Numbered from the stretch's first letter, positions 1 to 53,779 are shown. The stretch: DNA of 64,000 bases from a virus (IMGVR_UViG_3300037501_000255), one strand, 5' to 3'. The notes: generated by a model not told the origin, from the sequence alone. Numbers and translations are program-made.

Positions 1-63
1 GATTCGAACCCGCGATGCCCTGAGTCACAGTCAAGTGCCTTAAGCCGCTCGGCCACGGCCACC
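1..63 (-). tRNA. tRNA-His(GUG), 3' end outside the window
   Basis: Reverse complement gives G-1 GTGGCCG, D arm GCCGAGCGGCTTAAGGC, anticodon arm CTTGA-CT GTG AC-TCAGG and T arm GCGGGTTCGAATC. Confidence 0.9.
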
Positions 64-66
64 ATA

Positions 67-804
67 TCAGATAACTACTGTTACCGCCTCGCCGCGTTCT
101 TTGAGCAGACGACCTAAATCATCAAATGATATGCAGAACCGACCACATTTTCCCCAGAATCTTCCCCAAGAATTTATGCCCCATACCAATTTCTTCTCAA
201 CATCTATTCCCAGCAATTCAAAGGCATGACCCCCTCGACGCTCCCCGGTTATCCTAACTCTGCCGGACAGGTCAGGCTTATCGAAACCGGCATACCAGTT
301 TACACCTACAGCGACGGGGCCAACATACGCAAGCGTACGCAAAACGTCCTCAATACCGAAACACCAGCGATATTCTTTAATCAACATCGCTTCCTTGGCG
401 GCCTTCATAGCCGAAAGTACGCTTGAGCCGGTATCTGTGGGAGGATATTGCCCGCTAAATTGATCAAGCTCTGTAGCGCGCGAATAAAGATCGATGGCCA
501 GGTTTTGTGAAAAATCCACATCATCACCCAACCCATCCAGATTGTTTGGGTTGGTTGCCAGCAGCCCGACGATAGCATTCCCCGTACAGGAACCTAGTTT
601 GCCCTGATTTAGGGGCGGAGTGTGGCGCTCCCACATCTTACTGCGTAGCTCAACAGGATGCCCGTCTAAAATGACACGGTAATCCTTGCTGCGCTCATCG
701 AACTTTACGTGACGACCGAGGCGTCGACTGAATACTCCTAGCCACCCTATCAGTCGCCCCCACCACGTCTGCAGCTCCGGAATTATTTCTACCACTAAGG
801 ACAT
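67..804 (-). CDS. Papain-like (C1A) cysteine peptidase
   Basis: QGKLGSCTGNA (oxyanion Gln and catalytic Cys), GGHAF (His) and INSWGRFWGKCG (Asn) motifs. Confidence 0.85.
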   Translation of the reverse strand: MSLVVEIIPELQTWWGRLIGWLGVFSRRLGRHVKFDERSKDYRVILDGHPVELRSKMWERHTPPLNQGKLGSCTGNAIVGLLATNPNNLDGLGDDVDFSQNLAIDLYSRATELDQFSGQYPPTDTGSSVLSAMKAAKEAMLIKEYRWCFGIEDVLRTLAYVGPVAVGVNWYAGFDKPDLSGRVRITGERRGGHAFELLGIDVEKKLVWGINSWGRFWGKCGRFCISFDDLGRLLKERGEAVTVVI

Positions 805-958
805 CGCTTACCTCAAAATACCGATTAACTCTGGCATTGCACCTGTCACAGTGTAACGTGCCGTCCCGGTCATCCGTAATGAATCGCCCAATATACCTGC
901 CATTCTTACATGCCGTACATTGAGCATTGGTTAAGTCTATACTGTCAGACATGATATT

Positions 959-1034
959 TGGTGGAGCTGACAGGGATCGAACCTGCGACATCAAGCTTGC
1001 AAAGCTTGCGCTCTCCCAGCTGAGCTACAGCCCC
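959..1034 (-). tRNA. tRNA-Ala(UGC)
   Basis: GGGGCTG...CAAGC-TT TGC AA-GCTTG...GTTCGATCC...CAGCTCC A CCA; G3:U70 pair present. Confidence 0.95.
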
Positions 1035-1074
1035 GTACACACTAGCATCATATCTCTGCGTCAATAGACATTGA

Positions 1075-1383
1075 CTATATTACCCTACTCTTTTTAACTA
1101 CAAGATCTTCCCCGCAATCGGGACAGTATAGAAAATCTTCTCCTTTTAGAATCTTTCTAGCAAAGCTCTTAGCAGCATTCCCGAAGAACCTCTTCGACAA
1201 CTCTTCAGGCCACGGATGCTCACCTGATTCATAATGAACCTTTCCGTCCAGATCGATAGTCCACCAACCGCCTGGTAGGAGGAAGAGGTATTCACTGCGA
1301 GCTGGAAGAAAGAAATCGGCTCCAAAAGCCAGTTCTTCTGTTACATGTCCACAGGCGCACGTGAATGTATATTTCTTCCCCAT
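1075..1383 (-). CDS. Small Zn-ribbon-like hypothetical protein
   Basis: 102-aa ORF with CxC at the N-terminus and CPDCG at the C-terminus. Confidence 0.55.
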   Translation of the reverse strand: MGKKYTFTCACGHVTEELAFGADFFLPARSEYLFLLPGGWWTIDLDGKVHYESGEHPWPEELSKRFFGNAAKSFARKILKGEDFLYCPDCGEDLVVKKSRVI

Positions 1384-1640
1384 TATCTCACCTTCCGTAC
1401 ATAATCAGCTGCATAATGCCCGGTTCTTTCGAAGGACCCTCAAGCAGTAGCGTCTTGAGTGCGCTAACCTGCGCGGCACGTTTTGGATAGTCAACCCAAC
1501 CGGAGTCCCGGTCATATTCCTCTACCCTTTGGAAGGCGCGCTCAAGTTCTTCACGCTCGTAATCCCAGCCTAAATTAGCATGATATACAAGTGTGAGTGC
1601 AGCAAATGTCTCAGGAGCATCACCAAAAAGCACAGCATTT

Positions 1641-1946
1641 TTAATTGCTCCAGCCAACTTGCCATCGCGCCAATCGCACGCAGCGTCGTTCGAAAATGGT
1701 CGCGGCTGGCTTACACCAGCAGACTAAATCTTTGCCGGCCAGCTCTTTGCGCGCCGACTCAACCAATTCAGGCTGAGCCATGAGCCATTCCTCATATTTG
1801 AGTACAGCCTCTTCTCGGGAAGAAACCTTATATTGCGCAATTGTTCCATCTTTATGAGTAAAAGGGTTGCCCCATTTTGATGGCCGACCAATATACACCG
1901 CATCTGCTGCGGCCGTCTTGTGGTATTTATTATGTACCGTTGGCAT
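1641..1946 (-). CDS. DUF4326-like protein
   Basis: VYIGRPSKWGNPF and GKDLVCWCKP motifs; start trimmed to MPTVHNK. Confidence 0.75.
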   Translation of the reverse strand: MPTVHNKYHKTAAADAVYIGRPSKWGNPFTHKDGTIAQYKVSSREEAVLKYEEWLMAQPELVESARKELAGKDLVCWCKPAATIFERRCVRLARWQVGWSN

Positions 1947-2164
1947 AGACAAATACCTTTCCGCCCCTACACCTAGCTCGCCAACCCGCATCGCGACATA
2001 TTTTTAGCTAGTCGCGCAGCATTCTCCGGATCTTCGAAACCAAGAAAGCGAAATGTTGTGCGGTCACGGTCGCCGGATGGCCGCAGTAGAACCTTGCACG
2101 TATCCGCCTGTCGCTGCAAAAACTCTTTACTCAATAGGATCGACATCAAATATCTCGTAAGAAA

Positions 2165-2237
2165 TTAGGTCAAGGGGCGCGGTCAGCATTTTTTTCAAAG
2201 TGTTGGTTTGACGATAACTGAACCACATCGGACCTAA
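2165..2237 (-). ncRNA. Y-RNA-like small RNA 1 (canonical topology)
   Basis: TAGGTCCGA-TGTGGTTCAG-TTATC ... CTGACCGCG-CCC-CTTGACCTA. The ends pair into a helix with a bulged C, and the sequence is intergenic. Confidence 0.75.
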
Positions 2238-2244
2238 ATCAATT

Positions 2245-2610
2245 TCAGAGACTATTGTATTCTCTCAGGGCTCGGCGGAAGAGTGATTCGCGGTGAGGAT
2301 TCTTAATCTCGAACCGCTTGGATTCCATCTTGCCTGGGGCCGGATTGAGCGCGAGTACCGTATAGAAAAGATCCGTGTCGGGGTTGCGCTTCAGATAGTC
2401 CTCGGCCCAATCGACGAACTTCTGTTCATCCGTGAAAGCCGCAAAAACTTGATCGATTTTATCACCCTTCATCGTATGAAGGATCGCTGCGAACTGCTCT
2501 TCCATTTGTTCTCCTATAATTGGGCTCGGTGGAGTTGCTCCCGGCCGGCCTTCGTCTGGGTCTACAAGCATAGCTGAACTATACAATCTAGAGCCTGGAT
2601 TTCTCGACAT
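2245..2610 (-). CDS. Hypothetical protein
   Basis: 121-aa ORF, co-oriented with its neighbours. Confidence 0.5.
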   Translation of the reverse strand: MSRNPGSRLYSSAMLVDPDEGRPGATPPSPIIGEQMEEQFAAILHTMKGDKIDQVFAAFTDEQKFVDWAEDYLKRNPDTDLFYTVLALNPAPGKMESKRFEIKNPHRESLFRRALREYNSL

Positions 2611-2888
2611 GTAAGAGAGCGCCCAGGCGGCTGCCTTTTCGAAGTCAGTAAAGATTTGAAATTCGCTGTCTTCTATAGTTAGAGAATTGTCAAATATACA
2701 GATTATACTATCTCAGGACTGGAGATCTAGTTCTAGGTCGAAGGTGAATACATGCGGCTCAGCCACCCAATTCTCAAGATACTGCTCTAGCCATCCAGAA
2801 TCCCCGTTGACGAATAGCCCGGCGGGCACAGTTAAACACCCACTCTCATATGCTACTAGGTATACTTGAGTCATGAAATCCTTTAATT

Positions 2889-2964
2889 TGGCTCCGGGAG
2901 CAGGGTTCGAACCTGCGACCACCTGGTTAACAGCCAGACGCTCCACCAACTGAGCTATCCCGGA
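2889..2964 (-). tRNA. tRNA-Asn(GUU)
   Basis: TCCGGGA...CTGGC-T GTT AA-CCAGG...GGTTCGAACC...CCCGGA G CCA. Confidence 0.95.
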
Positions 2965-3144
2965 CCACTAAAATCGTAAGCGTTTATGTACTCGATATCC
3001 TCTGGCGTTAGGCACTTCCGCCACAGATATTCTAAATGATCGGCGATCAAATCCTCGAGTGCCTCTGGAAACTCAGGCACCCTGCTGCGCATCAGCAGCA
3101 GAGCCTTCGTAATCGCTATATACTTTTCCCTGTAGTTTTCCATA

Positions 3145-3318
3145 AGAAGAGTTGGTCGGCATAGCGTTCACCCTACGACCATCAGGCTCAATATACCAGC
3201 AAGTATGCGTTGCCGGTGCCAGCCCTGTGATATGGGCTTTTCGCTAGCACAGAGTTATCCTAGGTTCTCTGTATTCGCTAGGCACTCACCGCCTTCCGGG
3301 GGTGGTAATGAAAACACC
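3145..3318 (-). ncRNA. Unassigned multi-hairpin structured RNA
   Basis: No ORF. A TGCC/GGCA closing stem encloses TAGC/GCTA, CAGAG/CTCTG and AGCCC/GGGCT stems, followed by CCGGCAA/TTGCTGG and GGTCG/CGACC hairpins. Confidence 0.45.
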
Positions 3319-3404
3319 GTACACTAGAAGGATTTGAACCTCCGACCTCGGGCTCCAACAGCATGACGCAATGCCTGCGCTCTCCCAGGCTGAGCTATAG
3401 GTAC
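3319..3404 (-). pseudogene. tRNA-Pro-like gene with a 19-nt anticodon loop (12-nt insertion)
   Basis: D arm TAGCTCAGCCTGGGAGAGC and T arm GGAGGTTCAAATCCTTC are intact; loop is ATTGCGTCATGCTGTTGGA; acceptor stem has a bulge; no encoded CCA. Confidence 0.6.
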
Positions 3405-3674
3405 GGGCTGCTAGCGGTAATTGAAACTACTTCATCGTAAACATCATGATGTGATCGCAGCTGGTTTATTCGGAGAACCTGTCGGGCCCCTCCCCGCTCT
3501 AGGTTTTTGTCGTGCGACATGCTGTGTTATTTCCAAGTAAAATCAGATGTTCTGCATCCTTATTTGTATATGCTTCCGTAACCGTTTCCCAGTTGCAGAA
3601 TGACTCCACCAAAAAAACATCATCCCTATCGATACGCCTAGTTAAAGATGAGAATACTGATGCTTTTTCGTGGA

Positions 3675-3753
3675 TGGTTGCGGGAGCTGGATTCGAACCA
3701 GCGATATCGAGCATATGAAACTCGCGAGGACGACCAGACTCCTCTATCCCGCA
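3675..3753 (-). tRNA. tRNA-Met(CAU), initiator-like
   Basis: TGCGGGA...CGAGT-TT CAT AT-GCTCG...TCCCGCA A CCA; fMet-like acceptor stem and D arm. Confidence 0.88.
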
Positions 3754-3760
3754 TCTCTTT

Positions 3761-3836
3761 TGGTGGTGACAGCATGAGTCGAACATGCATAGGCCGGCGT
3801 ATGAAACCAGTGCACTGCCAATTGTGCTATGTCACC
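3761..3836 (-). tRNA. tRNA-Met/Ile2(CAU)
   Basis: GGTGACA...CTGGT-TT CAT AC-GCCGG...TGTCACC A CCA. Confidence 0.88.
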
Positions 3837-4074
3837 TCATCATATGGTAATCTTCATTTTCTTCATCTTGCGACCATTGGGACATATACAATGTGCTTTA
3901 ATGCCACAATCAGCATTGCCTAAAGGGTCTTGCGTATAACCGATTGTATTCACCACCCCAGAATGGGGCAAGGCCCGCACATGGGGACTTTAATACCTGG
4001 CAGATGGGGAAACAGTAAATTCCTTCCATAAAGAGGAAGATCTCACATTACTCCTGTAATCTGACCGTGTAGAA

Positions 4075-4150
4075 TGGAGAGAGTAGAGGGGTTCAAACCC
4101 TCGGCCTCCGACTTGGAAGGATGGCGCTCTATCAGCTGAGCTATACTCTC
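4075..4150 (-). tRNA. tRNA-Gly(UCC), non-canonical
   Basis: GAGAGTA acceptor and loop CT TCC AA; anticodon stem CCATC/GTCGG has two mismatches; T loop reads TTTGAAC; CCA encoded. Confidence 0.75.
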
Positions 4151-4156
4151 ATAAGA

Positions 4157-4542
4157 TTACAGTTCGTACCTAACTTGCCCGCCGTCTGTGAATAACCCTA
4201 CTCGGGCATATACCTCGAAGGGGATAATTGACTCGTAACCCTTAGCAAGAAGTTCATTGGAATAGACAGTAGACTTTTTATCTACCGATATCGTAATGTG
4301 CGGAATTGCATGATTACTCACAACTCCCATTGGCTCTACCGCAACAGCTTGCCCGTATTCATCGTCCGTACGCGTAGCCTGATTAGCTGTCCAAGCGGCA
4401 GCCCTTCAATCTCCTCATCCTAGGGATTAAAGTTGATGGTCATGTGGTGAGCAAAAACCTTGGGGTGCTTAGGGGGAAGGGCGCTAAGTATCGCTGCTCG
4501 ACTCTCCTCCGGAAGAAATGCCCCTGCGTAAATTACCGCCAT
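4157..4542 (-). pseudogene. 2H phosphoesterase (tRNA-ligase cyclic phosphodiesterase-like), interrupted
   Basis: Absent from the ORF track. Manual translation: MAVIYAGAFLPEE...AHHMTINFNP*DEE...LRV~DDEYGQAVAV...SNHAIPHITISV...SNELL. Two HxT motifs, an in-frame TAG at 4420-4422 and one frameshift near 4370. Confidence 0.7.
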
Positions 4543-5571
4543 CTACCCACTCCATAAGAATATCGAAGCAATCTTCGCAAAGATCTAGGTCAAACACCTG
4601 TTCATCCCTGCGCGACTCGTATCCCCAATATGCAGTTAAATTGGCATGTTCGTAATTCATCTGACGCCTGCATGACTGTCCGCATCGATCACAAATAATA
4701 TCCGCTAGGGCTTCAACTACGGTCTCGACTCTGGTCATCCTCCTCATCTACGGGCTCCCGGATATCTCTAAAATGAGCAGTTAGAGCATTTAGTGCAAAA
4801 GTACGTATCTTCTGTGGCCAATTATTTTGGCTAAGTGCGATAGGTAGATTTGCCTTCCATAGTAGGAGCGCATAGGTGCGCGAGGCCGGCAAACCTGTCA
4901 TATTAAAACTACGCAAGTGTTTTAGTTGTGTGGAAAAGACTCTCTGAACTTTTCCAATCAGTTTGGGGTCTAAACTCTTTCTTAGCTCGGATTATAAGAT
5001 CTGGGCCGCCTCAGAGGCTCCAAAAAGATTCAATTCACTCATGTGCGATAGAGTTTTGTAGCCACCGGAATTACCCGTGTGGTTCTGTGAAATAGGAATA
5101 CGCTGCCTGTATGTAGATTTACTACAGTGTAACTTTCTTCGGAAGCTTGAGCGGTCAGAGGCCACAGATCAGTTTCTGAAATAGACTTCCCGAGATTTTT
5201 TACTGCAAACTCTGGCACAAAGGTACCGCAGGTCGGAAGATTTTCCAATTCAATGGCGGGCACTTCTGCTGTATCCGTTCGCAAAATCATCATACGTAGT
5301 TCCTGCGCGAGCAACAAATTCCGATAAGTAAAACCACCCCATCCGATCTGGGCTGTATCCGGGTGGCATCTGCGGTCGGTCAAGATCTATGCCATAGTAA
5401 TCGCGTCTTATATTTCCGGAATATAATCGATTATTTTCCCATAGTAGATCTATGCGGCGCTGAATCTCGGCAGAGATTACTTCAGCTATCTCGGGCACTT
5501 CTCTATTATAAACTTTAATTCTAGCCATTAGGTAGGCAAGCGTCTCTTTACTATAGCACTTCATAGTTAAT

Positions 5572-5701
5572 TGGTGGGGACGGAGGGACTCGAACCCTCA
5601 TGCTGTTTAGGCGCAGGAATCTTGGCGATTGGTGTCGGAGTCGAACCAACATATACCTTACCAATCAAATCCTGTGTGTCTACCAGTTCCACCACGTCCC
5701 C
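5572..5701 (-). tRNA. tRNA-Leu(UAG) interrupted by a 44-nt minihelix insert (5623-5666) between anticodon positions 34 and 35
   Basis: GGGGACG/CGTCCCC acceptor stem, Leu-type D arm and long variable arm. Removing 5623-5666 restores CAGGA-TT TAG AT-TCCTG. Confidence 0.85.
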
Positions 5702-5734
5702 ATACTAATTATTTACGATACATGCGGAGGGCTT

Positions 5735-6166
5735 ATGGACCTATACTTTGAAGATGTTGACTGCTATATTAGCGTAGAGCCGGAAGATTTCAGCGAAACT
5801 TTTGTTGTTGATGCCGAGATTTCCGATGCAGCCGCTGACCTACTCATTACTGCAAATGAACTTGATGAGGTGGGATTTTCCTCCTTAGCCAATACTATGG
5901 ACTCCATCCTGATGAAGTTAGCGGCAAAGTATCATGGCCGTACAGTTACACTTAACAAGCCATTTAGGACGCCGAAGGGCCCTAAGAAATTCAGCGTATA
6001 CACTAAAAATGAGAAGGGTAACGTAGTCAAGGTTAATTTCGGAGACCCAAACATGGAGATTAAACGCGATATACCGGCTCGCCGTAAATCATTTAGAGCA
6101 CGTCACAAGTGCGATAATCCCGGCCCCAAGTGGAAGGCGCGCTACTGGTCATGCAGAATGTGGTGA
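5735..6166 (+). CDS. Conserved viral protein with a basic C-terminal domain
   Basis: GGAGG RBS before ATG 5735. C-terminus KVNFGDPNM...RRKSFRARHKCDNPGPKWKARYWSCRMW resembles a domain recalled from large dsDNA viruses. N-half has an ANELD..G motif. Confidence 0.7.
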   Translation: MDLYFEDVDCYISVEPEDFSETFVVDAEISDAAADLLITANELDEVGFSSLANTMDSILMKLAAKYHGRTVTLNKPFRTPKGPKKFSVYTKNEKGNVVKVNFGDPNMEIKRDIPARRKSFRARHKCDNPGPKWKARYWSCRMW

Positions 6167-6361
6167 GCTTGTCACTTAAATTCATCGCTCAAATCGTATA
6201 CCCCCGAAAAACGAATCAGCTCACGTTTCGCGGAAATCCCCGCGCGACTCATTCGTAGTTAAAACTTTCTGAGCAGACTCTGGACGAAGCCTCGTTTCAA
6301 TATGGCGGCCTGCACTGGAGTAATCATCTCCTTCTCTGTAAATGTCACGGCCATTTTATAC

Positions 6362-7072
6362 TTACTCCTTTACGAGTATAACCTGATGCTGCTCCAGCCA
6401 TGCATCTGGTAGATGCCGAGGTCGCGCATTGTCCAAGAAGTGTTTGCGCCAAAAAGCAGTTACCCTCTCCTCCCCCAGATCAGCAACAACCTTGTCTGCC
6501 CAACAGTCCATATCCTCGCGAATTCTCGTCTGCTCTTCAATAAAACCAGCAAGAGCTGCTGTGTTATTGTGCAGATGCGAGGGTAGCTTCGCCCACATTT
6601 TTGGGAGGGCATTTGGATGAAGCATCTCAGCTCTTTCATACAAAGCCTTGGCGATGCGAAGCGACTCGACTACCCGGTTCCATTTCTGCTTATCAATCAG
6701 CGCATTTTTGAGAATGGTCTTTTCTGCCTCTGCAGTGCGCTCATAAGTATCATGGCAGGATACGCAAAGTGCCAGAACGTCGTATCCATTGTGGCGCTTG
6801 TACTTTTCCCTGAATGACCTGCGAAAACAGTACGGCACTACGTGATGGCGCTCTAGATTTTTCTCTGTGCCACACACCACGCATTTACTTGCGCGCGGCA
6901 GTAGCTCCACATCGTAACTGACGCCTCGGCCAGCATGTTCGAAATTGAGCTTGAACTCCCTATCTGAAATACGAGATGCTAAATTGCGGCCTACATACCA
7001 CTCCATGCGCTTGCGATCTACATAGGCGAGTGTCTCGCCTGTATGTGAAATCATTTTGCAGTTGTCGTACAT
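6362..7072 (-). CDS. HNH nuclease (EXD2 C-terminal-like)
   Basis: WYVGRNLA, CVVCG, RHHVVPYCFRR and HNGYDVLALCVSCH motifs. Confidence 0.75.
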   Translation of the reverse strand: MYDNCKMISHTGETLAYVDRKRMEWYVGRNLASRISDREFKLNFEHAGRGVSYDVELLPRASKCVVCGTEKNLERHHVVPYCFRRSFREKYKRHNGYDVLALCVSCHDTYERTAEAEKTILKNALIDKQKWNRVVESLRIAKALYERAEMLHPNALPKMWAKLPSHLHNNTAALAGFIEEQTRIREDMDCWADKVVADLGEERVTAFWRKHFLDNARPRHLPDAWLEQHQVILVKE

Positions 7073-7091
7073 GGCATCGTCTTTTTGAAAA

Positions 7092-7167
7092 TGGAGCCGG
7101 CAACCAGAATTGAACTGGTGACCTCCTGCTTACAAGGCAGATGCTCTACCTGCTGAGCTATACCGGC
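7092..7167 (-). tRNA. tRNA-Thr(UGU)
   Basis: GCCGGTA...TCTGC-CT TGT AA-GCAGG...TGCCGGC T CCA. Confidence 0.95.
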
Positions 7168-7400
7168 GTAAACCTTACCTCTCTATACTACAGCGCCTAA
7201 GGTCGGAGGGCTGCTCCTAAATCCTAGAGAGTGAGATCCCAAATCATTATTTTTGCCGTACGTCAGATTGGGAATTGAGTACGAGCAGAGTAGGGCCCGC
7301 ATTCATTACATAAGTAATAGAGCGGGTTCACCATCTCATGTTTCCATGTGGCAACTAATCTCTAATCGTAGCCGAAGCCTTAGATTGCATCGAGATTATG

Positions 7401-7531
7401 TGGTGGCCTGAGAGGGACTCGAACCCTCATGCCTGTGAAGGCGGTTGATTTTTGGTGGAGGATATTGGAGTTGCACCAATCACACCTACGTCCCCCGAGT
7501 CAACTGTGTCTACCAGTTCCACCATCAGGCC
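7401..7531 (-). tRNA. tRNA-Leu(CAA) interrupted by a 44-nt minihelix insert (7453-7496) between anticodon positions 34 and 35
   Basis: GGCCTGA/TCAGGCC acceptor stem, Leu-type D arm and long variable arm. Removing 7453-7496 restores GTTGA-CT CAA AA-TCAAC. Confidence 0.88.
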
Positions 7532-7991
7532 AAAAAATCAATCTTTCAACGTCACCTCTGGTTTGCAGAATCTAAGAAAATCCTCTTTCATATATTTCCT
7601 GTGCATCTTTCCCAAGTCCGTTCTGCATACTCGTCGTTTCGGATTCTTCTCAAACCATTCGCACAAACCGGCCCACATTTAATTGGCGTCGCGCTGACCT
7701 AGAAGTCCATATACGATAAACATGTTATTCACCAATTGTCGTAGTCGGTCACATTCTTTTATTTATCAAAACATCGTACGCTGACGCCCGTGCCAATTGA
7801 CGTTGGGGCAAAGAGTAGCTACCCCCCCCCCATGGCTCCAGTATAGGGCCACTTGCCGCCGCCGGTAAGATGCTCAAAATCTTCCGGACTCATTTCCGCC
7901 CGCTGTTTTTCGATCAACTCCTGCTTACACTCTTCGATGAAAGCTTTGGCGGCTTCCAATTCCTTGCCGGAGATGGTGAATGTGCGACTGT

Positions 7992-8240
7992 TCATATGCA
8001 TTTCCTTGCTACTCCCAGCATTTCGGTCCGAGCCACGTCCCCATCCTCATTCAGATAGTAGAGCCAGCCGGGTTCGAATGTTATTCCGGTTTTAACGATA
8101 TCTTCGACTTTAGTGCGGGGTCTCTTTTTCGAGACGGTCCGACACCGCTTAACTGCTCCGTCACGGGTGATCCAATAGATGTATCCTTTTTCGCGCTTGA
8201 TTCCGATTTGGAAAAGCACTTCGGTACGACCGGGAGGCAC
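7992..8240 (-). CDS. Small basic protein, possibly Cc1-like DNA-binding
   Basis: Internal duplication GIKREKGYIYWITRDG / GITFEPGWLYYLNEDGDVAR resembles recalled crenarchaeal Cc1-type proteins. Confidence 0.4.
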   Translation of the reverse strand: MPPGRTEVLFQIGIKREKGYIYWITRDGAVKRCRTVSKKRPRTKVEDIVKTGITFEPGWLYYLNEDGDVARTEMLGVARKCI

Positions 8241-8627
8241 TCACGCCGCCGCCGAAGGAGCATTCTCCACGGTGAATCCACTCACTTCCGCAACGTCTTC
8301 GACCAAAAAGCGTCGACCGAATCCATCCTGCTCCACGCGAACGCGGGCGCCCTTAGCAAAAAGCACATCAATCTTGTCATTGATGAGTACCTGGGTGCCA
8401 TCCTGCATGAATACAACGGTCACGTCTGATACGACCTGAGATGCGGAGAGTGTGCCTCCTGCATACGAGGGCATGCTGCTGTGCTTAGTGGTGTACTCAA
8501 TCTTTTCGAGGACACCACTATGAATAACCGTTCTTACTGCGCTAAGCTTAGTGGCAAAGCTCTTCGCAGCAAAGAGGCCGGCCACGGCAAGTCCGAGAAG
8601 TGCTGAAATCTTAATGACACTATTCAT
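8241..8627 (-). CDS. Hypothetical membrane-anchored protein
   Basis: 128-aa ORF with a hydrophobic N-terminal helix. Confidence 0.55.
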   Translation of the reverse strand: MNSVIKISALLGLAVAGLFAAKSFATKLSAVRTVIHSGVLEKIEYTTKHSSMPSYAGGTLSASQVVSDVTVVFMQDGTQVLINDKIDVLFAKGARVRVEQDGFGRRFLVEDVAEVSGFTVENAPSAAA

Positions 8628-8653
8628 TGCTATCCTCTTTTCTATACTAGAAA

Positions 8654-8719
8654 TCGGTCAAGTGGGTACTGTGGACTGGTTCATTTTTGAGTAAAGATAA
8701 TCCACAGAAGTCGGACCGA
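8654..8719 (-). ncRNA. Y-RNA-like small RNA 2 (canonical topology)
   Basis: TCGGTCCGA-CTTCTGTGGA-TTATC-...-TCCACAG-TACCCA-CTTGACCGA; the upper stem CTGTGGA/TCCACAG pairs perfectly. Confidence 0.8.
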
Positions 8720-8721
8720 AA

Positions 8722-8773
8722 TGGTGGGGGGTGGATTCGAACCACCGACGCGGCCAATCTCCGCCTGCTCCCA
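8722..8773 (-). ncRNA. Free-standing mini-tRNA (one internal hairpin, T arm, CCA)
   Basis: TGGGAG-CAG-GCGG AGATTGG CCGC-GTC-GGTGG TTCGAAT CCACC-CCCC-A-CCA. Confidence 0.55.
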
Positions 8774-8781
8774 TAAATAAA

Positions 8782-8860
8782 TTAGGTCTAGTTGATGGCT
8801 AGAGTGCCCTGGTGGGCGGTTCATTTTGGGTAAACGATAATCTAACCAATTCGGACCTAA
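8782..8860 (-). ncRNA. Y-RNA-like small RNA 3 (canonical topology)
   Basis: TAGGTCCGA-ATTGGTTAGA-TTATC-...-CTCTAGCCAT-CAA-CTAGACCTA; shares the loop motif TTTACxCAAAATGAACC with RNA 2. Confidence 0.78.
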
Positions 8861-8865
8861 AGTAG

Positions 8866-8940
8866 TGGTAGCCCCTGCCGGATTTGAACCGACGACCTTA
8901 TCCGTGTAAAGGATCTGCTCTACCGCTGAGCTAAGGGGCT
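8866..8940 (-). tRNA. tRNA-Val(UAC)
   Basis: AGCCCCT...GATCC-TT TAC AC-GGATA...AGGGGCT A CCA. Confidence 0.93.
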
Positions 8941-8977
8941 GCGGTGCCTTACGTATGCCTTGAACTGCTATATGCTG

Positions 8978-8987
8978 TAATTAATTA
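8978..8987. promoter_or_regulatory. Palindromic TAATTAATTA intergenic motif (1 of 7 copies)
   Basis: Exact copies start at 8978, 28294, 31276, 42395, 51346, 51628 and 55863, almost all at gene boundaries. Confidence 0.5.
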
Positions 8988-8993
8988 CTTATT

Positions 8994-9063
8994 TGGCAGG
9001 GGGGCTCGAACCCCCATCAACTATTTTGGAGACAGCCATTTTAGCTATTAAACTACACCACTA
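8994..9063 (-). tRNA. tRNA-Trp(CCA), 3' acceptor strand shortened
   Basis: GCTGT-CT CCA AA-ATAGT anticodon arm. The T arm is followed directly by TGCCA; the missing bases lie beside a C/G run, so assembly collapse is possible. Confidence 0.65.
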
Positions 9064-9078
9064 TCTTGAAGAATGATT

Positions 9079-9205
9079 TAGTGGGCCCGGTGGGACTCGA
9101 ACCCACACCGCTTTTATTCCAAAAAATGATAACGATTCTCTGTCGTACCCAAAGGGTCAGGTGGTGAGAACCACTAGTTTTGTGCTACCGTTACAACACG
9201 GGCCC
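9079..9205 (-). ncRNA. tRNA scaffold carrying a permuted Y-RNA-like helix instead of an anticodon arm
   Basis: GGGCCCG/CGGGCCC acceptor stem, D arm and T arm GTGGGTTCGAGTCCCAC; centre GGTTCTC-ACCA-CCTGACCC-TTT-GGGTACGA-CA-GAGAATCG-TTATC; 3' end ACTA. Confidence 0.65.
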
Positions 9206-9233
9206 GTGTATCAATATTAAACCATACTTCTTG

Positions 9234-9917
9234 ATGTCTAAAGTCAAGCTCCTCAGCCTAATTCTCGGCTGCCTCTTTCTCCTATTTGCTGGATGTAGAT
9301 CCAACCTAACTCACGAAGAGTTGCTTGCCTCGCGCATTGCCGAAGCAAGGCCGGCGATTGTTCATCTACTTGCGGAAGGTAGTAGTTGCTCCGCGTTTCA
9401 TGTTGGACACGAGCTTTTTATTACCGCAAGTCACTGTATCCGTCCCGATACGGAGTACATTATCGTAGATTCTGAGGATAATCCGTATGGGGTTCGCCCG
9501 ATACTTATTGATAGGGACCGGGATGTGACAGTGTTTGAGAGTAACGGATTTGAGGGCCAGCCCATGCAATTGTGGAATGAGCAGCTATACGGCTCTCCAA
9601 AGATAGGCTCTACGATAGTCAGTATGGGATTTCCAGGATATTATCTGCAAAACTTTGTTTTCGAAGAGGGTACCGTTCTAGACAAGAGAACTGATAATGG
9701 GGTGCGCCTTATCGTTAGTCGCGGAGTAAGTTATCCCGGAGAATCTGGTGGCCCAGTCATTTCATTGCAGAATGGTCAGGTGGTGGGGTTAGTACATGCA
9801 TTAGCGGAGCGTATTACCCACATAAATGACGATGTTCAAGTTCACAACACTTTAAGTCTGTTAGTTGCTTGGTCTGAAATAAGGACAGTCTTAGAGCAAG
9901 CTCGTAAGGTTAGATAA
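9234..9917 (+). CDS. Trypsin-like (S1) serine protease, predicted lipoprotein
   Basis: LLFAGC lipobox, TASHC, DRDVT and GESGGP motifs; start trimmed to ATG 9234. Confidence 0.85.
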   Translation: MSKVKLLSLILGCLFLLFAGCRSNLTHEELLASRIAEARPAIVHLLAEGSSCSAFHVGHELFITASHCIRPDTEYIIVDSEDNPYGVRPILIDRDRDVTVFESNGFEGQPMQLWNEQLYGSPKIGSTIVSMGFPGYYLQNFVFEEGTVLDKRTDNGVRLIVSRGVSYPGESGGPVISLQNGQVVGLVHALAERITHINDDVQVHNTLSLLVAWSEIRTVLEQARKVR

Positions 9918-9932
9918 CTTTAGGAGTTAACA

Positions 9933-10601
9933 ATGCTAATACGTAATATTCTAGCAGCTTTCATGCTGCTTGTAGTCAGCTCTTGCGCTATTTTCCGGCC
10001 GGCGCCAGTACAGGCTACGGTACAAGAATCGCGGGGTGCGGTGACGCACATCCTCTATGGGCAGCGTTCCTGCACAGCATTTCATATTGGGGATGGAAGA
10101 TTCATAACTGCCGCACATTGTTTCGGAGAGGATCTTGGAGGACCCATGGATGAGGTCCGCATGGTCAATGAACGCAATTTTCAATACTTCCCGAAAGTAG
10201 CGAAATTTAATAAGGCAAAAGATCTGGTGCTTTTGCTGGCCCCTGACTTTAAAGGGCCAGCGCTGTCCTTGTGGGATGGTGGATGGGACGGTCACATTCC
10301 GCGCGGAATGGAGCTCGTGGCTCTAGGATATCCTGGGTACTATGGTCTAGATTTCATCTTCGAGCATGGATTTATCAAAGATATAGTTAACTTTGAAGGG
10401 GTCGAGATGGTTGTCTCTGAGGAGGCGTCTTACTCCGGCGAGTCTGGTGGCCCCGTACTTTCTACTGCAAATGGAAAGGTTATCGGTATGGTAGATGCTG
10501 GTATAGAGCTTATTAATTGGCGTCGCTTTCCAATGCATGAGCATGTAAGCATTTCACTATTTGTGAGTGCCATGGAAATACGTGCTTTTCTAGCAAAGTA
10601 A
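9933..10601 (+). CDS. Trypsin-like (S1) serine protease paralogue, predicted lipoprotein
   Basis: VVSSC lipobox, TAAHC, KDLVLL and GESGGP motifs; tandem paralogue of the upstream gene. Confidence 0.85.
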   Translation: MLIRNILAAFMLLVVSSCAIFRPAPVQATVQESRGAVTHILYGQRSCTAFHIGDGRFITAAHCFGEDLGGPMDEVRMVNERNFQYFPKVAKFNKAKDLVLLLAPDFKGPALSLWDGGWDGHIPRGMELVALGYPGYYGLDFIFEHGFIKDIVNFEGVEMVVSEEASYSGESGGPVLSTANGKVIGMVDAGIELINWRRFPMHEHVSISLFVSAMEIRAFLAK

Positions 10602-10623
10602 ACTGCATCATCTACGCGGACGT

Positions 10624-10650
10624 GAGCGCCGGGATTTCTCGGCGCTTTTC
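10624..10650 (+). terminator. Intrinsic terminator after the protease pair
   Basis: GAGCGCC...GGCGCT hairpin followed by TTTT. Confidence 0.55.
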
Positions 10651-10798
10651 GTTTGCTCGGAAGCGGCACGCAGCTTTTCTTTAAGACTATCCAGTGCCCA
10701 CTTGACAGCGACAACACCATCATGACCTATATCGTAGGCTGATTGCTCTAGGCGCACTTCCTCTATCAGTTCTTCGATTTGTTTTATTTTCATATAAG

Positions 10799-10875
10799 TG
10801 GTTGGGGCGGCAGGACTCGAACCTGCAATAACTGGAATCAAAATCCAGGGTCCTAGCCAATTAGACGACGCCCCA
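10799..10875 (-). tRNA. tRNA-Gln(UUG)
   Basis: TGGGGCG...CTGGA-TT TTG AT-TCCAG...CGCCCCA A CCA. Confidence 0.95.
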
Positions 10876-11208: not shown

Positions 11209-11304
11209 TGGTGGGAGGGGTTGGATTTGAACCAACTTTAACCAGATAACCTTCTTCTATCGGACAATTCAGTCTAGTAGTTGAAGACGGATTTGTCACT
11301 TCCC
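11209..11304 (-). ncRNA. Minihelix (acceptor stem, T arm, CCA) carrying a permuted Y-RNA-like helix
   Basis: GGGAAGT...CCGTCTTC-AACTA-CTAGAC-TGAATT-GTCCGA-TA-GAAGAAGG-TTATC...GTTGG TTCAAAT CCAAC-CCCTCCC-A-CCA; no D arm. Confidence 0.7.
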
Positions 11305-11307
11305 AAG

Positions 11308-11436
11308 TGGTGGAGGGGGCTGGACTCGAACCAGCGACACAGGGCATTTCATGCGATAACCGATTTCTGTCGGAACAGGAGTTCAAAAAGTTGAAATCGA
11401 ATTTGTTCCCTGCTCTACCAACTAAGCTACTCCTCC
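11308..11436 (-). ncRNA. tRNA scaffold (Phe-like) with a permuted Y-RNA-like helix in the anticodon region
   Basis: GGAGGAG/CCCCTCC-A-CCA with canonical D and T arms; centre TCGATTTC...TTTGAAC-TCCT-GTTCCGA-CA-GAAATCGG-TTATC. Confidence 0.75.
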
Positions 11437-11746: not shown

Positions 11747-11869
11747 TGGCGGCGACATCCCGAATCGAACGGGAAACGCGCGTTTAACAGACGAGAATAA
11801 TCTTCAATCGGACCTCGGGTCGAGTGGCGAAGATCACTTTTTCGTGTGATACCATTTCACCATATCGCC
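11747..11869 (-). ncRNA. tRNA scaffold with a permuted Y-RNA-like helix
   Basis: GGCGATA/TGTCGCC-G-CCA, D arm GTGAAATGGTATCAC and a T arm; centre GATCTTC-GCCA-CTCGACC-CGA-GGTCCGA-TT-GAAGATT-ATTC. Confidence 0.75.
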
Positions 11870-11950: not shown

Positions 11951-12083
11951 ACTTCCTAGCAGGACTCGAACCCGCACAGATCATATCGATAATTCATACC
12001 ATCGGACAGAGTCAATAACCGGTATGGTCGGCTGGTCACCAGATTTCTCTGGTCGTACTTACCAATTAGTACGATATAGGAAG
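11951..12083 (-). ncRNA. tRNA scaffold with an extra hairpin and a permuted Y-RNA-like helix
   Basis: CTTCCTA/TAGGAAG acceptor stem, D-like GTACTAATTGGTAAGTAC, hairpin CCAGA-GAAA-TCTGG, then CCATACC...TTGAC-TCT-GTCCGA-TGGTATGAA-TTATC and a T arm; no encoded CCA. Confidence 0.65.
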
Positions 12084-53190: not shown

Positions 53191-53412
53191 GAGTTTGCGG
53201 CGGGCCCATCTGCGGAGCGCCGGCCTTCTCTTGTGGTGATAGCGATTGCAGCAGTCGCAGTGCATTCCGCCAGGACCACGCTTTCCATGCATGATTTTTG
53301 CCATCGGATCAGCCTGTGTCCTCCAAAAGAAAACCAGCGGGGTTGGCTACCCGCATCTCCCGGATACAATCCGGGGCTTTAATTAAGCTATGGTTAAGGG
53401 ATTGGTCTAAAA

Positions 53413-53736
53413 GGCGTCGGTGGGGCATTTGTTTTCAACCATAGAAAGATAACCCGCTAACTGTCGGACCAAAAGAGAGTCGGGTCAAAAGAGCGGCTAT
53501 GGGGATTGTCTGGTAAATATAGATAACCCATGTGCCTGCAGACCCAGAAAAGGTGCGATACGGTAGTTGCGGCGGCATCACAACCCCGTAATTTTTACGA
53601 TACATCTGTCTGGTATTCAACTTTCCGGCGTGTAGTGCGGCGCCTGGAACTTTACTCGTCAGAACAGATTATCCTTGCCCTTACCTCGCTACCGTATCGC
53701 AGGGGTAGTATGGGACGAGGTGGGTGGTTGGACGCC
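53413..53736 (-). ncRNA. ~325-nt structured RNA containing a permuted Y-RNA-like helix
   Basis: Terminal GGCGTC/GACGCC stem; perfect 13-bp long-range stem 53554-53566/53689-53701; TTGACC (53488-53483), GGTCCGA (53470-53464), TTATC (53452-53448). Confidence 0.6.
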
Positions 53737-53779
53737 AACTATTTAACTTGTTCAGCGTCAGCGACGGGGACCACGCCCG

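What the first reader, a model, noticed from the sequence alone, without database searches (positions are those of the whole stretch)
2165..8860. Three free-standing Y-RNA-like RNAs with the metazoan-type Ro60-binding signature
Seen: 2165-2237, 8654-8719 and 8782-8860 each read GGTCCGA-N10-TTATC...CT(T/A)GACC with paired ends, a bulged C and a second stem whose sequence differs between copies but still pairs. Established (recalled from memory): human Y1 begins GGCUGGUCCGAAGGUAGUGAGUUAUC and ends near CUUGACU, the bulged-C helix is the Ro60 binding site, and UUAUC is conserved in Y RNAs and nematode sbRNAs. In bacteria, Ro60 (Rsr) and Y RNAs act with PNPase and are often encoded with the RtcB RNA-repair operon. 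Inference: the phage makes several Y RNAs to bind, sequester or retarget a Ro60 protein. No Ro60/TROVE ORF is visible in this window.
Basis: partly seen in the sequence, partly recalled or inferred. Interest (0 to 1): 0.85.

Follow-up and report, generated by a model that had tools for sequence, protein, structure and literature searches.

The report
Phage Y RNAs partnering phage Ro60
The three small RNAs are genuine Y RNAs, the docking RNAs of the ring-shaped RNA-surveillance protein Ro60. This giant freshwater phage encodes its own Ro60 about 25 kb away, and the RNAs carry almost the same docking sequence as human Y RNAs, but phage Ro60/Y-RNA pairs are already known, so this is a well-supported new example with some unusual features.

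Summary
Observation confirmed. On the minus strand, 8862-8781 (A), 8722-8652 (B) and 2239-2164 (C) read UUU-N-GGUCCGA-N10-UUAUC ... (U/A)GACC. They have a conserved C-bulged lower helix and a 7-bp upper stem that covaries. Two further open copies lie at 53475-53400 (D) and 53549-53479 (E).

The same docking module also occurs loop-closed inside five tRNA-shaped RNAs (T1-T5, 12.1-9.1 kb). The genome encodes a full-length Ro60 (TROVE+vWA, 535 aa) on the same strand, 26.8 kb beyond C and outside the window.

A covariance model built only from A-D finds 46 relatives in 71 other Ro60-bearing viral contigs. All are on the Ro60 strand, and 45 lie within 1.8 kb of the gene. Covariation is strong. Orthologues and synteny exist in related jumbo-phage contigs.

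Best reading: these are Y RNAs that dock on the phage's own Ro60, and they are probably released from tRNA-punctuated transcripts.

No expression or binding data exist.

Phage Ro60/Y-RNA pairs are published (Chen 2014; phiLo 2025), and this scan has reported similar arrays and tRNA-shaped Y RNAs on other DNA. It is therefore a new member of a known kind. The unusual points are a near-exact animal-type handle, genes unlinked from Ro60, and ten modules.

The parts
8781..8862 (-). Open Y RNA A: UUUAGGUCCGA-AUU-GGUUAGA-UUAUC ... UCUAGCC-AUCAA-CUAGACCUAA. It starts 4-5 nt after the CCA end of tRNA-Val.
   Evidence: z -4.55; E 1.5e-6 with the model from B alone; 68.2 bits; sbRNA RF01656, 22 bits. 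Orthologues are L096 and L101.
8652..8722 (-). Open Y RNA B: UUUCGGUCCGA-CUU-CUGUGGA-UUAUC ... UCCACAG-UACCCAC-UUGACCGA. It starts directly after the ACCA end of the tRNA-like spacer and is followed by the ribosome-binding site and ATG of ORF 8627-8241.
   Evidence: z -3.63; 72.1 bits; RF01656 32.6 bits against a gathering score of 38; RF00019 20.6 bits.
2164..2239 (-). Open Y RNA C: UUUAGGUCCGA-UGU-GGUUCAG-UUAUC ... CUGACC-GCGCCCC-UUGACCUAA. It fills the 95-nt gap between ORFs 2610-2245 and 2149-1973.
   Evidence: z -3.20; E 0.0098; 77.1 bits. The orthologue is L108. L088 carries a Y RNA just downstream of tRNA-Asn(gtt) and tRNA-Gly(tcc), as in the window.
53400..53475 (-). Open Y RNA D, a weaker copy: GGUCCGA-CAG-UUAGCGGG-UUAUC ... 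UUUUAGACC. Its upper stem is imperfect. Its 5' half can alternatively pair with the 3' half of E.
   Evidence: z +0.34; E 0.17; hybrid pairing 53448-53496, E 0.6.
53479..53549 (-). Open Y-like RNA E with a diverged handle (GGGUCUGC ... UUUUGACCC) and GGGUUAUC. It lies in tandem upstream of D. A terminator-like hairpin plus a U run follows D at about 53352-53325.
   Evidence: (E 0.053).
8722..8776 (-). tRNA-like spacer without a D arm, lying between A and B. It has a short acceptor-like stem, a hairpin, a GGUGG-UUCGAAU-CCACC T arm and an ACCA end. It is a candidate RNase P / 3'-end processing signal.
   Evidence: (weak tmRNA/T-arm hits). Whether it has a processing role is inference.
8866..8940 (-). 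tRNA-Val(UAC) with an encoded CCA, immediately upstream of A.
11951..12083 (-). T1: a tRNA-shaped RNA. It has a 7-bp acceptor stem CUUCCUA/UAGGAAG, a D arm and a T arm. A loop-closed Y module (11988-12026: CAUACCG-GUUA-UUGAC-UCU-GUCCGA-UGGUAUG-AA-UUAUC) sits in the anticodon-arm position.
   Evidence: Parsed by hand and not recovered by model R3. A syntenic counterpart is in L094.
11747..11869 (-). T2: a tRNA-shaped RNA. It has the acceptor stem GGCGAUA/UGUCGCC, D and T arms and a GCCA end. The closed Y module is at 11793-11836 (GAUCUUC-GCCAC-UCGACC-CGA-GGUCCGA-UU-GAAGAUU-AUUC).
   Evidence: R3 E 0.0078; T2 was not in the model. A syntenic counterpart is at L094 2644-2689.
11311..11436 (-). 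T3: a complete tRNA body with a CCA end, in which 64 nt replace the inner anticodon arm. The closed Y module is at 11355-11400 (UCGAUUU-CAACUUU-UUGAAC-UCCU-GUUCCGA-CAG-AAAUCGG-UUAUC).
   Evidence: (Rfam tRNA 39.8 bits with a 64-nt insert). The orthologue is at L094 2315-2360 (E 7.7e-6).
11209..11304 (-). T4: a tRNA-like RNA without a D arm, with a T arm and a CCA end. The closed Y module is at 11245-11290 (CCGUCUU-CAACUA-CUAGAC-UGAAUU-GUCCGA-UAG-AAGAAGG-UUAUC).
9082..9205 (-). T5: a tRNA-shaped RNA with the acceptor stem GGGCCCG/CGGGCCC and D and T arms. The closed module at 9128-9173 is diverged: the handle reads GGGUACGA, so the bulge is A or the register is shifted.
   Evidence: (weak tmRNA and YrlA hits).

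Best explanation
A, B and C, with D and E, are Y RNAs: small non-coding RNAs whose paired 5' and 3' ends form the Ro60 docking site. That site is a 6-7-bp helix, a bulged C, a G.U/A-U step and an asymmetric internal loop. They are encoded by a jumbo phage of at least 368 kb that also encodes its own full-length Ro60 on the same strand. The proposed mechanism has three steps. (1) The RNAs are transcribed within the minus-strand tRNA and small-ORF array and are cut out by the enzymes that mature the flanking tRNAs and tRNA-like spacer. A begins 4-5 nt after the tRNA-Val CCA, and B begins directly after the ACCA of the spacer. (2) The GGUCCGA strand and bulged helix bind the outer surface of the phage Ro60 ring, as in animal Ro60-Y RNA complexes. 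(3) The variable, A-rich apical loops (AAAUGAAC-type in A and B), and in T1-T5 a whole tRNA body, act as the effector end. This end would tether or gate partners such as an exoribonuclease (host PNPase, as in Deinococcus and phage phiLo) or tRNA-handling and repair enzymes. The complex would then serve RNA quality control or repair in the infected cell, alongside the phage's tRNAs, tmRNA, RlaP and RNA ligase. Shown here: the sequence and structure family, its covariation, its conservation in related phages, a Ro60 gene on the same molecule, and tight Ro60 linkage of homologous RNAs elsewhere. Inferred: transcription, processing, binding, partners and biological role.
For: Motif excess is 4 found against 0.04 expected. 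The folds have z scores of -3.2 to -4.6. Within the window, the lower helix is conserved and the upper helix covaries. Rfam Y_RNA and sbRNA are the only non-tRNA families that align end to end, and the handle, UUAU(C) and ACUUGAC(C) all match their consensus. Ro60 lies on the same molecule: the window is 100% identical to contig SRR12686701_20811 over 10,804 nt, and that contig carries a TROVE+vWA_Ro60 gene of 535 aa. This protein matches animal Ro60 9nen (E 6.5e-135), Xenopus 1yvp (E 9e-131) and D. radiodurans Rsr 2nvo (E 1e-112), and NCBIfam Rsr at 506 bits. Model R2, built only from A-D, gives 46 hits in 1.31 Mb around 71 other viral Ro60 genes. All are on the Ro60 strand and 45 lie within 1.8 kb of the gene. 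That alignment has 95.5% of cells paired, 14 of 15 pairs with double-sided changes, and 0 of 500 shuffles as good. A metagenome pattern scan found orthologues of A and C and syntenic arrays in related jumbo-phage contigs, and three tandem exact-handle copies directly upstream of another Ro60. In the 301-nt context, tRNA-Val, A and B each fold as separate modules. Published precedent: Chen 2014 (PMC4201824) and phiLo (PMC12135203).
Against: There are no transcript, end-mapping or binding data: only DNA metagenome runs hold the sequence. The Y genes lie 26.8-78 kb from Ro60, whereas in nearly all other loci they are adjacent. No module occurs within about 13 kb of the Ro60 gene here or in the locus of the 80% relative. 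Rfam scores are below the gathering thresholds. The promoter and terminator scans are no better than shuffles. D folds no better than shuffles, and E has a diverged handle. A and D have G.A in place of the G.U of the animal site. The partner or effector is unknown, and neither RtcB nor PNPase was seen in the 103 kb examined.
Confidence: 0.8

Rival explanations
1. The RNAs are decoys or adaptors aimed mainly at a host Ro60 (Rsr). They would sequester or retarget the host surveillance protein instead of serving the phage's own Ro60.
For: The genes are unlinked from the phage Ro60. The closest cellular relatives of the phage Ro60 are about 48% identical proteins from Polyangiaceae and other Myxococcota genomes, so a plausible host group may have its own Ro60. 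The handle is generic enough to bind divergent Ro60s.
Against: The phage keeps an intact, full-length Ro60. In 30 other viral contigs the same RNA family is adjacent to, and co-oriented with, the viral Ro60, which points to a cognate pair. The host is unknown. The two roles are not mutually exclusive.
Confidence: 0.08
2. The elements are Ro60-independent structured RNA. They could be processing or punctuation hairpins, 5'-UTR regulators of the downstream small ORFs (B lies before ORF 8627-8241 and C before 2149-1973), or ligands of another protein.
For: B and C lie immediately upstream of ORFs. No expression or binding data exist. The genes are distant from Ro60.
Against: The conserved part is exactly the published Ro60-contact sequence, and the variable part covaries. 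The family tracks Ro60 genes in other phages with complete strand bias. The downstream genes differ between copies.
Confidence: 0.08
3. The elements are decayed remnants of tRNA-derived repeats or chance hairpins with no function.
For: D and E are imperfect. The region is full of tRNA-like debris and HNH endonuclease genes.
Against: Compensatory changes maintain both helices within the window and across 45 and 16 distinct relatives. Orthologues are kept in related phages. The motif excess is about 100-fold.
Confidence: 0.02

Closest known systems
Vertebrate Y RNAs (Rfam RF00019) and nematode stem-bulge RNAs (RF01656)
   Same: The 5' and 3' ends pair. GGUCCGA lies on the 5' strand with a bulged C, and (AC)UUGAC(C) lies on the 3' strand. 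An asymmetric internal loop, a 7-8-bp upper stem and UUAU(C) exactly 10 nt after GGUCCGA follow, then a variable loop (alignments; site definition in PMC4726728).
   Different: Scores are below the Rfam gathering thresholds (20.6 and 32.6 against 38). The RNAs are shorter (66-82 nt). They are not Pol III genes and have no La-type U tail by design. A and D have UAGACC. They are encoded by a phage in a tRNA array. Homology versus convergence with the animal RNAs is unresolved.
Bacterial and phage YrlA/YrlB and D. radiodurans Yrn1/Yrn2 (Chen et al. 2014, PMC4201824; Rfam RF02553)
   Same: They are Ro60 (Rsr) partners with a handle related to GGUCCGA (GNCGAAN0-1G). A conserved YUAY follows the stem. 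Several Y RNAs occur per genome, one class small and rod-like (YrlB, Yrn2) and one class tRNA-like (YrlA). They were reported in 22 phages.
   Different: A-C have no T or D arm, so they resemble the YrlB/Yrn2 rod class. Here the handle is the exact animal heptamer with a fully paired 3' strand. T1-T5 carry the tRNA body in native order, with free acceptor ends and a loop-closed handle. That is a circular permutation of YrlA, which has free handle ends and a loop-closed acceptor. The genes are not within 2-4 kb of Ro60.
Thermus phage phiLo phiRo60 with Yrl1/Yrl2 and host PNPase (PMC12135203; PDB 9KOP, 9L5Y)
   Same: A phage-encoded Ro60 has phage-encoded Y-like RNAs. The CGA(A) core of the handle is needed for binding. 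A RYPER-like complex with host PNPase was shown in vitro.
   Different: The phiLo Ro60 is only remotely related to this protein (23 bits). The phiLo Yrl genes lie directly upstream of the Ro60 gene. There are two RNAs there and ten modules here.
Multi-copy Y RNA arrays and tRNA-shaped Y RNAs reported earlier in this scan on other DNA (e1-3278832, e1-3287561, e1-3458872, e1-4977532)
   Same: The same kind of animal-type handle, arrays of several Y RNAs beside Ro60 inside tRNA clusters, and tRNA hybrids with the handle in the anticodon-arm position. I re-derived the same picture independently in L071, L014, L019, L020, L053 and L094.
   Different: In this genome the array is detached from Ro60 by 27-78 kb and is interleaved with ORFs and true tRNAs.

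Membership tests
Y RNA (functional class: Ro60-bound small RNA) | The 5' and 3' ends pair into a terminal helix that carries the Ro60 site: the GGUCCGA strand, a bulged C and a bulge or internal loop on the opposite strand. | tested here: met
   The heptamer is exact in A-D. The 3' strand reads UUGACC in B and C, and UAGACC in A and D.
Y RNA (functional class: Ro60-bound small RNA) | The same organism encodes a Ro60/TROVE protein. | tested here: met
   A 535-aa TROVE+vWA_Ro60 gene lies on the same contig. It matches animal Ro60 at E 6.5e-135 and NCBIfam Rsr at 506 bits.
Y RNA (functional class: Ro60-bound small RNA) | The gene is encoded close to Ro60 and on the same strand, the criterion used for bacterial and phage candidates in Chen 2014. 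| tested here: not met
   The strand is the same, but the distance is 26.8-78 kb. No module lies within about 13 kb of Ro60. Homologous RNAs in 30 other viral contigs do meet the criterion.
Y RNA (functional class: Ro60-bound small RNA) | Physical binding to Ro60 and Ro60-dependent accumulation. | not testable with these tools
Rfam RF00019 Y_RNA | Score at or above the gathering threshold (38 bits). | tested here: not met
   20.6 bits for B. A and C have no listed hit.
Rfam RF01656 nematode sbRNA (ceN72-3_ceN74-2) | Score at or above the gathering threshold (38 bits). | tested here: not met
   32.6 bits for B and 22.0 bits for A. One homologue beside another phage Ro60 reaches 38.5 bits (L053 9765-9828).
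Rfam RF02553 YrlA | A tRNA-like domain (T arm, D arm, loop-closed acceptor-like stem) between the two strands of the Ro60-binding stem. | tested here: not met
   A-C have no T or D arm. The only YrlA hit in 15 kb scores 19.1 bits against a gathering score of 69, at 9008-9132. T1-T5 have T and D arms but in the permuted (native tRNA) order.
Phage small Y RNA family defined here (model R2) | A significant match to the covariance model and covariation that supports both helices. | tested here: met
   A-D were used to build the model, so their match is by construction. Independent members are 46 hits beside viral Ro60 genes and 20 hits in metagenome contigs. Covariation is shown.

The most novel reading that the evidence does not exclude
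This phage lineage keeps a graded series on one strand: full tRNA bodies with the Ro60 handle in place of the anticodon loop (T1-T3, T5), D-armless minihelix forms (T4 and the A/B spacer), and bare hairpins (A-E). All of them share the same handle-N10-UUAUC register, in which UUAUC occupies the place of the tRNA variable loop. This fits the idea that Y RNAs in general descend from such tRNA-handle chimeras. That would include animal Y RNAs and nematode sbRNAs, which share GGUCCGA-N10-UUAUC and ACUUGAC. On this view the Ro60/Y-RNA pair moved between viruses, bacteria and animals as a unit, and the shared features are not convergent. A further possibility is that the CCA-ended chimeras are recognised by tRNA enzymes and deliver Ro60 to damaged tRNAs.
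Probability: 0.2. Interest if true: 0.75.

Novelty: new member of a known kind. Interest (0 to 1): 0.5.

Why it matters
Ro60 and Y RNAs are best known from human autoimmunity and from bacterial stress responses. Phage versions have only begun to be studied, with one biochemical paper in 2025.

This case shows that a giant phage can carry ten Ro60-docking modules scattered through its tRNA, tmRNA and RNA-repair island. It also shows that small Y RNA genes need not lie next to Ro60, so searches restricted to the neighbourhood of Ro60 will miss them. [quoted passage not shown]

The covariance models built here pick up many unannotated relatives beside phage Ro60 genes. Rfam has no family for them, so a curated family would improve annotation.

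The RNAs are short and the protein is close to solved structures. The proposed binding is therefore easy to test.

Tried and rejected
- **Rfam at gathering thresholds:** no Y RNA family hit. Only sub-threshold hits appeared in the E-value scan.
- **Strict handle pattern in viral contigs:** two hits, both chance matches inside coding-looking DNA with no closing strand.
- **Own genome search:** no genome is held for the window. I walked along an identical public contig instead.
- **Protein-based search of metagenome contigs with ORF 6362-7072:** nothing found.
- **Full-signature pattern in 185,579 representative prokaryote genomes:** five hits that fold poorly and look like chance. This exact signature with its UUU flank is therefore not common in cellular genomes. 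The pattern was deliberately strict, so this is weak negative evidence.
- **Expression:** only DNA metagenome runs hold the stretch.
- **Promoter and terminator scans of 1-14 kb:** no more sites than in shuffles.
- **Plain MFE folding of T1-T5:** it does not return the closed module on its own. That parse rests on comparison between copies and on model R3. T1 is not recovered by R3.
- **Search for Y modules next to the phage's Ro60:** none found.
- **Ro60 residues that contact the Y RNA:** I looked in the available papers and found no list, so I made no residue-level check.
- **Introns reading of T1-T5:** I considered that they are intron-containing tRNAs. I could neither confirm nor exclude it. 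No splicing endonuclease was seen, and the inserts are far too short for group I introns.

Full report
**1. What is there**

Read 5' to 3' they are:

- **A (8862-8781):** UUUAGGUCCGA-AUU-GGUUAGA-UUAUC...UCUAGCC-AUCAA-CUAGACCUAA
- **B (8722-8652):** UUUCGGUCCGA-CUU-CUGUGGA-UUAUC...UCCACAG-UACCCAC-UUGACCGA
- **C (2239-2164):** UUUAGGUCCGA-UGU-GGUUCAG-UUAUC...CUGACC-GCGCCCC-UUGACCUAA

Evidence that this is more than chance:

- The motif GGTCCGA-N8-14-TTATC occurs four times in 64 kb, always on the minus strand, against 0.04 expected.
- A, B and C fold better than shuffled versions, with z scores of -4.6, -3.6 and -3.2.
- A covariance model made from B alone finds A (E 1.5e-6), C (E 0.01) and a fourth copy D at 53475-53400 (E 0.17).
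- A model of the four copies adds a fifth, E, at 53549-53479. It lies in tandem with D, upstream of a terminator-like hairpin.
- In the four-copy alignment the lower helix is nearly invariant. Six of the seven upper-helix pairs change on both sides while staying paired. Overall 94.9% of cells are paired, against 14-48% when the partner strand is slid.

This pattern is what a protein-binding handle joined to a purely structural stem should look like.

**2. Likeness to animal Y RNAs**

At Rfam's gathering thresholds only tRNAs and a tmRNA are found. In the permissive scan, the only other families that align end to end with these elements are the nematode stem-bulge RNA family RF01656 and Y_RNA RF00019. 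RF01656 scores 32.6 bits on B and 22.0 on A, and RF00019 scores 20.6 bits on B. All three are below the threshold of 38.

The printed alignments show what is shared:

- the GGUCCG(A) strand;
- (G)UUAU(C) directly after the upper stem;
- (C)ACUUGAC(C) on the 3' strand.

[quoted passage not shown] These RNAs meet that definition, except that A and D have a G.A opposition where B, C and animal Y RNAs have G.U.

**3. The Ro60 gene**

The window has no TROVE gene. A note from another window of the same genome (e1-5339956) said that one lies to the left, and I checked this.

- Window 1-10804 is identical, base for base, to two public metagenome contigs.
- Walking along one of them, SRR12686701_20811, reaches a 535-aa gene with Pfam TROVE and vWA_Ro60 domains. 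It is on the same strand as the RNAs and lies 24.7-26.3 kb beyond the left end of the window.
- The protein aligns over its full length with animal Ro60 (9nen, 454 bits), Xenopus Ro60 (1yvp, 440 bits) and D. radiodurans Rsr (2nvo, 381 bits).
- It keeps the DxSxS metal-site motif and matches NCBIfam Rsr and the phage family phrog_850.
- The same protein is recorded on a 367,953-bp contig. Its nearest relatives are 55-80% identical proteins on other large metagenome contigs, followed by proteins about 48% identical from Myxococcota genomes.

C therefore lies 26.8 kb from Ro60, A and B lie about 33 kb away, and D and E lie about 78 kb away. No module lies within about 13 kb of the Ro60 gene, either here or in the locus of the 80% relative.

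**4. Association with Ro60 elsewhere**

I fetched 71 viral contigs that encode 36-46% identical Ro60 proteins, with 10-kb flanks. I searched them with the model built only from this window's A-D.

- There are 46 hits with E up to 1 in 1.31 Mb, in 30 of the loci.
- All 46 are on the Ro60 strand, and 45 lie within 1.8 kb of the gene. Most are in tandem arrays in the last 800 nt before the start codon.
- The rest of those loci act as an internal control and give nothing.
- In that alignment 95.5% of cells pair, and 14 of 15 pairs show changes on both sides. No shuffle out of 500 reaches the observed values.
- Most relatives read GGGCCGA...CUUGCCC. The U-A pair of this phage's (and the animal) handle is replaced there by G-C, which is itself a compensatory change inside the handle.
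- One relative (L053) passes the Rfam sbRNA threshold.

This co-occurrence is the strongest available evidence that the family is a Ro60 partner.

**5. Orthologues**

A pattern scan of metagenome contigs for the full signature returned 21 loci. Twenty hits in them match the model at E of 0.004 or better.

- L096 and L101 are clear orthologues of A, and L108 is an orthologue of C.
- L088 has its copy just downstream of tRNA-Asn(gtt) and tRNA-Gly(tcc), as in the window.
- L089 has three tandem exact-handle copies directly upstream of another Ro60, among eight tRNAs.
- L094 comes from a 228,945-bp contig, the same length as the contig that carries the 55% Ro60 relative. It is syntenic with window 12.1-11.2 kb.
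- The upper helix covaries in all seven pairs.

**6. The same module inside tRNA-shaped RNAs**

A relaxed motif scan and close reading show five more handles between 12.1 and 9.1 kb. They are arranged the other way round:

upper-stem 3' strand, C/A-rich loop, U(U/C/A)GAC(C), a 3-6-nt closing loop, (G)GUC-C-GA, 0-3 nt, upper-stem 5' strand, UUAU(C/U).

Points about these five (T1-T5):

- Each upper stem has a different sequence, yet each pairs.
- Each module lies between a D arm and a T arm, within an RNA closed by a 6-7-bp acceptor stem. T4 lacks the D arm. Three of the five have an encoded CCA.
- Rfam's tRNA model aligns T3 fully, with 64 nt replacing the inner anticodon arm.
- A model built from T3, T4 and T5 recovers T2 independently (E 0.008), but not T1.
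- The same model finds closed modules beside Ro60 in other phages, again only on the Ro60 strand. The upper helix covaries in 7 of 7 pairs.
- In L071 three such tRNA-shaped RNAs alternate with open Y RNAs just before Ro60. There UUAUC is exactly the variable loop.

Chen et al. describe YrlA as a handle, then a conserved YUAY that opens the V loop, then a T arm, a loop-closed acceptor-like stem and a D arm. T1-T5 are the same design with the break moved from the handle to the acceptor end. Earlier agents of this scan reported this layout on other DNA (e1-3287561, e1-3458872). I reached it independently here.

**7. How it probably works**

*Shown:* a conserved, covarying RNA family with the Ro60 contact sequence; a Ro60 gene on the same molecule; and tight linkage of the family to Ro60 genes in other phages.

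*Inferred:*

- The RNAs are made from the minus-strand tRNA and small-ORF transcripts.
- A starts 4-5 nt after the CCA of tRNA-Val. A 55-nt tRNA-like element without a D arm and ending in ACCA separates A from B, and B starts right after that ACCA. RNase P and tRNA 3'-end processing could therefore release both.
- The handle docks on the outer face of the phage Ro60 ring, as in the Xenopus complex summarised in PMC4201824 and PMC4726728.
- The loops are variable and A-rich, and share an AAAUGAAC-type stretch in A, B and several orthologues. They would be the effector end.

By analogy, the complex would recruit or gate an exoribonuclease. In Deinococcus, Y RNA tethers Rsr to PNPase. In phage phiLo, Ro60 with Yrl RNAs binds host PNPase and attenuates it.

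Context around the array:

- The array lies in an island with at least 17 tRNA-type genes and a tmRNA.
- The island also encodes ClpB, an RlaP nucleotidyltransferase, a DraRnl-type RNA ligase and an MnmA-like enzyme.
- The flank holds PTH2, IF3, an IF1-like protein and an SspB-like protein.
- A DHH/DHHA1 (NrnA-like) gene lies two genes before Ro60, both here and in the 80% relative.

The literature on jumbo phages reads such islands as a counter-measure to host attacks on tRNA, with TROVE proteins as an RNA-repair platform alongside a tRNA-like partner (PMC7824862). I therefore favour a role in surveillance, decay or repair of damaged or misfolded RNAs during infection. No data here test this.

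**8. Rivals**

- **Decoy for a host Ro60.** This is possible and not exclusive. The intact phage Ro60 and the cognate pairing in other phages make it the lesser reading.
- **Ro60-independent element** (processing hairpin or 5'-UTR element). This does not explain why the conserved part is the Ro60 contact sequence, or why the family tracks Ro60 genes.
- **Decay products.** These are excluded by the compensatory changes and the orthologues.

**9. Novelty and score**

Phage Ro60 genes with Y-like RNAs are published: 22 phages in Chen 2014, and biochemistry for phiLo in 2025. This scan has already reported multi-copy arrays, animal-type handles and tRNA-shaped Y RNAs on other DNA. The three RNAs are therefore new members of a known kind.

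Four points go beyond the ordinary:

- the near-exact animal handle with the same 10-nt spacing to UUAUC;
- the detachment of all ten modules from the Ro60 gene, which a neighbourhood-based search would miss;
- the tRNA-punctuated arrangement;
- the coexistence of bare, minihelix-linked and full tRNA-embedded forms.

Rfam has no family that captures them. I score interest at 0.5. The bolder evolutionary reading, that Y RNAs descend from tRNA-handle chimeras and were transferred together with Ro60, is not excluded, but nothing here demonstrates it.

**10. Limits**

- There is no expression evidence.
- Only about 103 kb of a genome of at least 368 kb was searched.
- The phage identity of the molecule rests on PHROG matches, HNH endonucleases and the tRNA/tmRNA island, and on unverified notes of virion genes elsewhere in the genome.
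- The host is unknown.
- D and E are weak members with alternative pairings.
- T1 and T5 have diverged handles.

Noticed in passing
window 9082-9205, 11209-11304, 11311-11436, 11747-11869, 11951-12083 (minus strand): Five tRNA-shaped RNAs (T1-T5) carry a loop-closed copy of the Ro60 handle in the anticodon-arm position. This is YrlA wired in native tRNA order. The same design lies beside Ro60 in other phage contigs (L071, L014, L019, L020, L053) and in the syntenic relative L094.
   Followed up: yes
window 53400-53549 (minus strand), terminator-like hairpin about 53325-53352: A tandem pair of weaker Y-like RNAs (E then D) lies 78 kb from Ro60, ahead of an intrinsic-terminator-like hairpin. The 3' strand of E and the 5' strand of D can also pair with each other as a closed module. 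The 200 nt upstream (53550-53760) has no ORF and was not analysed.
   Followed up: partly
window 8722-8776 (minus strand): A tRNA-like minihelix without a D arm, with a perfect T arm and an ACCA end, lies exactly between Y RNAs A and B. It may be a processing signal or a small tRNA mimic in its own right.
   Followed up: partly
window 5575-5701 and 7404-7531 (minus strand): Two tRNA genes of about 127 nt (Rfam tRNA 45.3 and 42.0 bits) have inserts of about 55 nt that contain a second T-arm-like element. Other notes on this genome (e1-5339953, e1-5339968) call them tRNA-Leu genes with minihelix introns. No Ro60 handle was seen in them.
   Followed up: no
window 34558-34922 (tmRNA), 21838-24426 (ClpB), 20019-21167 (RlaP), 62467-63540 (RNA ligase), 27270-28241 (MnmA-like); flank L008/L080: A large translation-rescue and RNA-repair island. 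It holds a phage tmRNA (tag ANDNVEFAPVALAA), ClpB, an RlaP nucleotidyltransferase, a DraRnl-type ATP RNA ligase (TIGR02306, just above its cut-off) and a tRNA thiolase-like enzyme. Left of the window it also holds PTH2, IF3, an IF1/eIF-1A-like protein, an SspB-like protein, YqeY and HSP20.
   Followed up: partly
L008:14827-15675 (own genome, left of the window) and L082:582-1430 (80% relative): A DHH/DHHA1 phosphoesterase (a weak NrnA-like match) lies two genes upstream of Ro60 in both genomes. It is a candidate nuclease partner of the Ro60 complex.
   Followed up: partly
window 929-983 (minus strand): A weak model hit (E about 1): the T arm and 3' acceptor strand of tRNA-Ala (GGUUCGAUCCCUGUCAG) can pair with a sequence just downstream (CUGACAG...CUUAACC). 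This gives a handle-like hairpin that overlaps the tRNA. It is probably chance.
   Followed up: no
L053:9765-9828: A small RNA just upstream of another phage's Ro60 gene passes the gathering threshold of the nematode sbRNA family RF01656 (38.5 against 38 bits). Automatic annotation could therefore label phage Y RNAs as nematode RNAs.
   Followed up: no
L008:17920-18003 and 19150-19761: More tRNA and tRNA-like genes, including long-variable-arm types with weak tRNA-Sec-model hits, flank the Ro60 gene itself. The tRNA-rich region therefore spans at least 40 kb.
   Followed up: no
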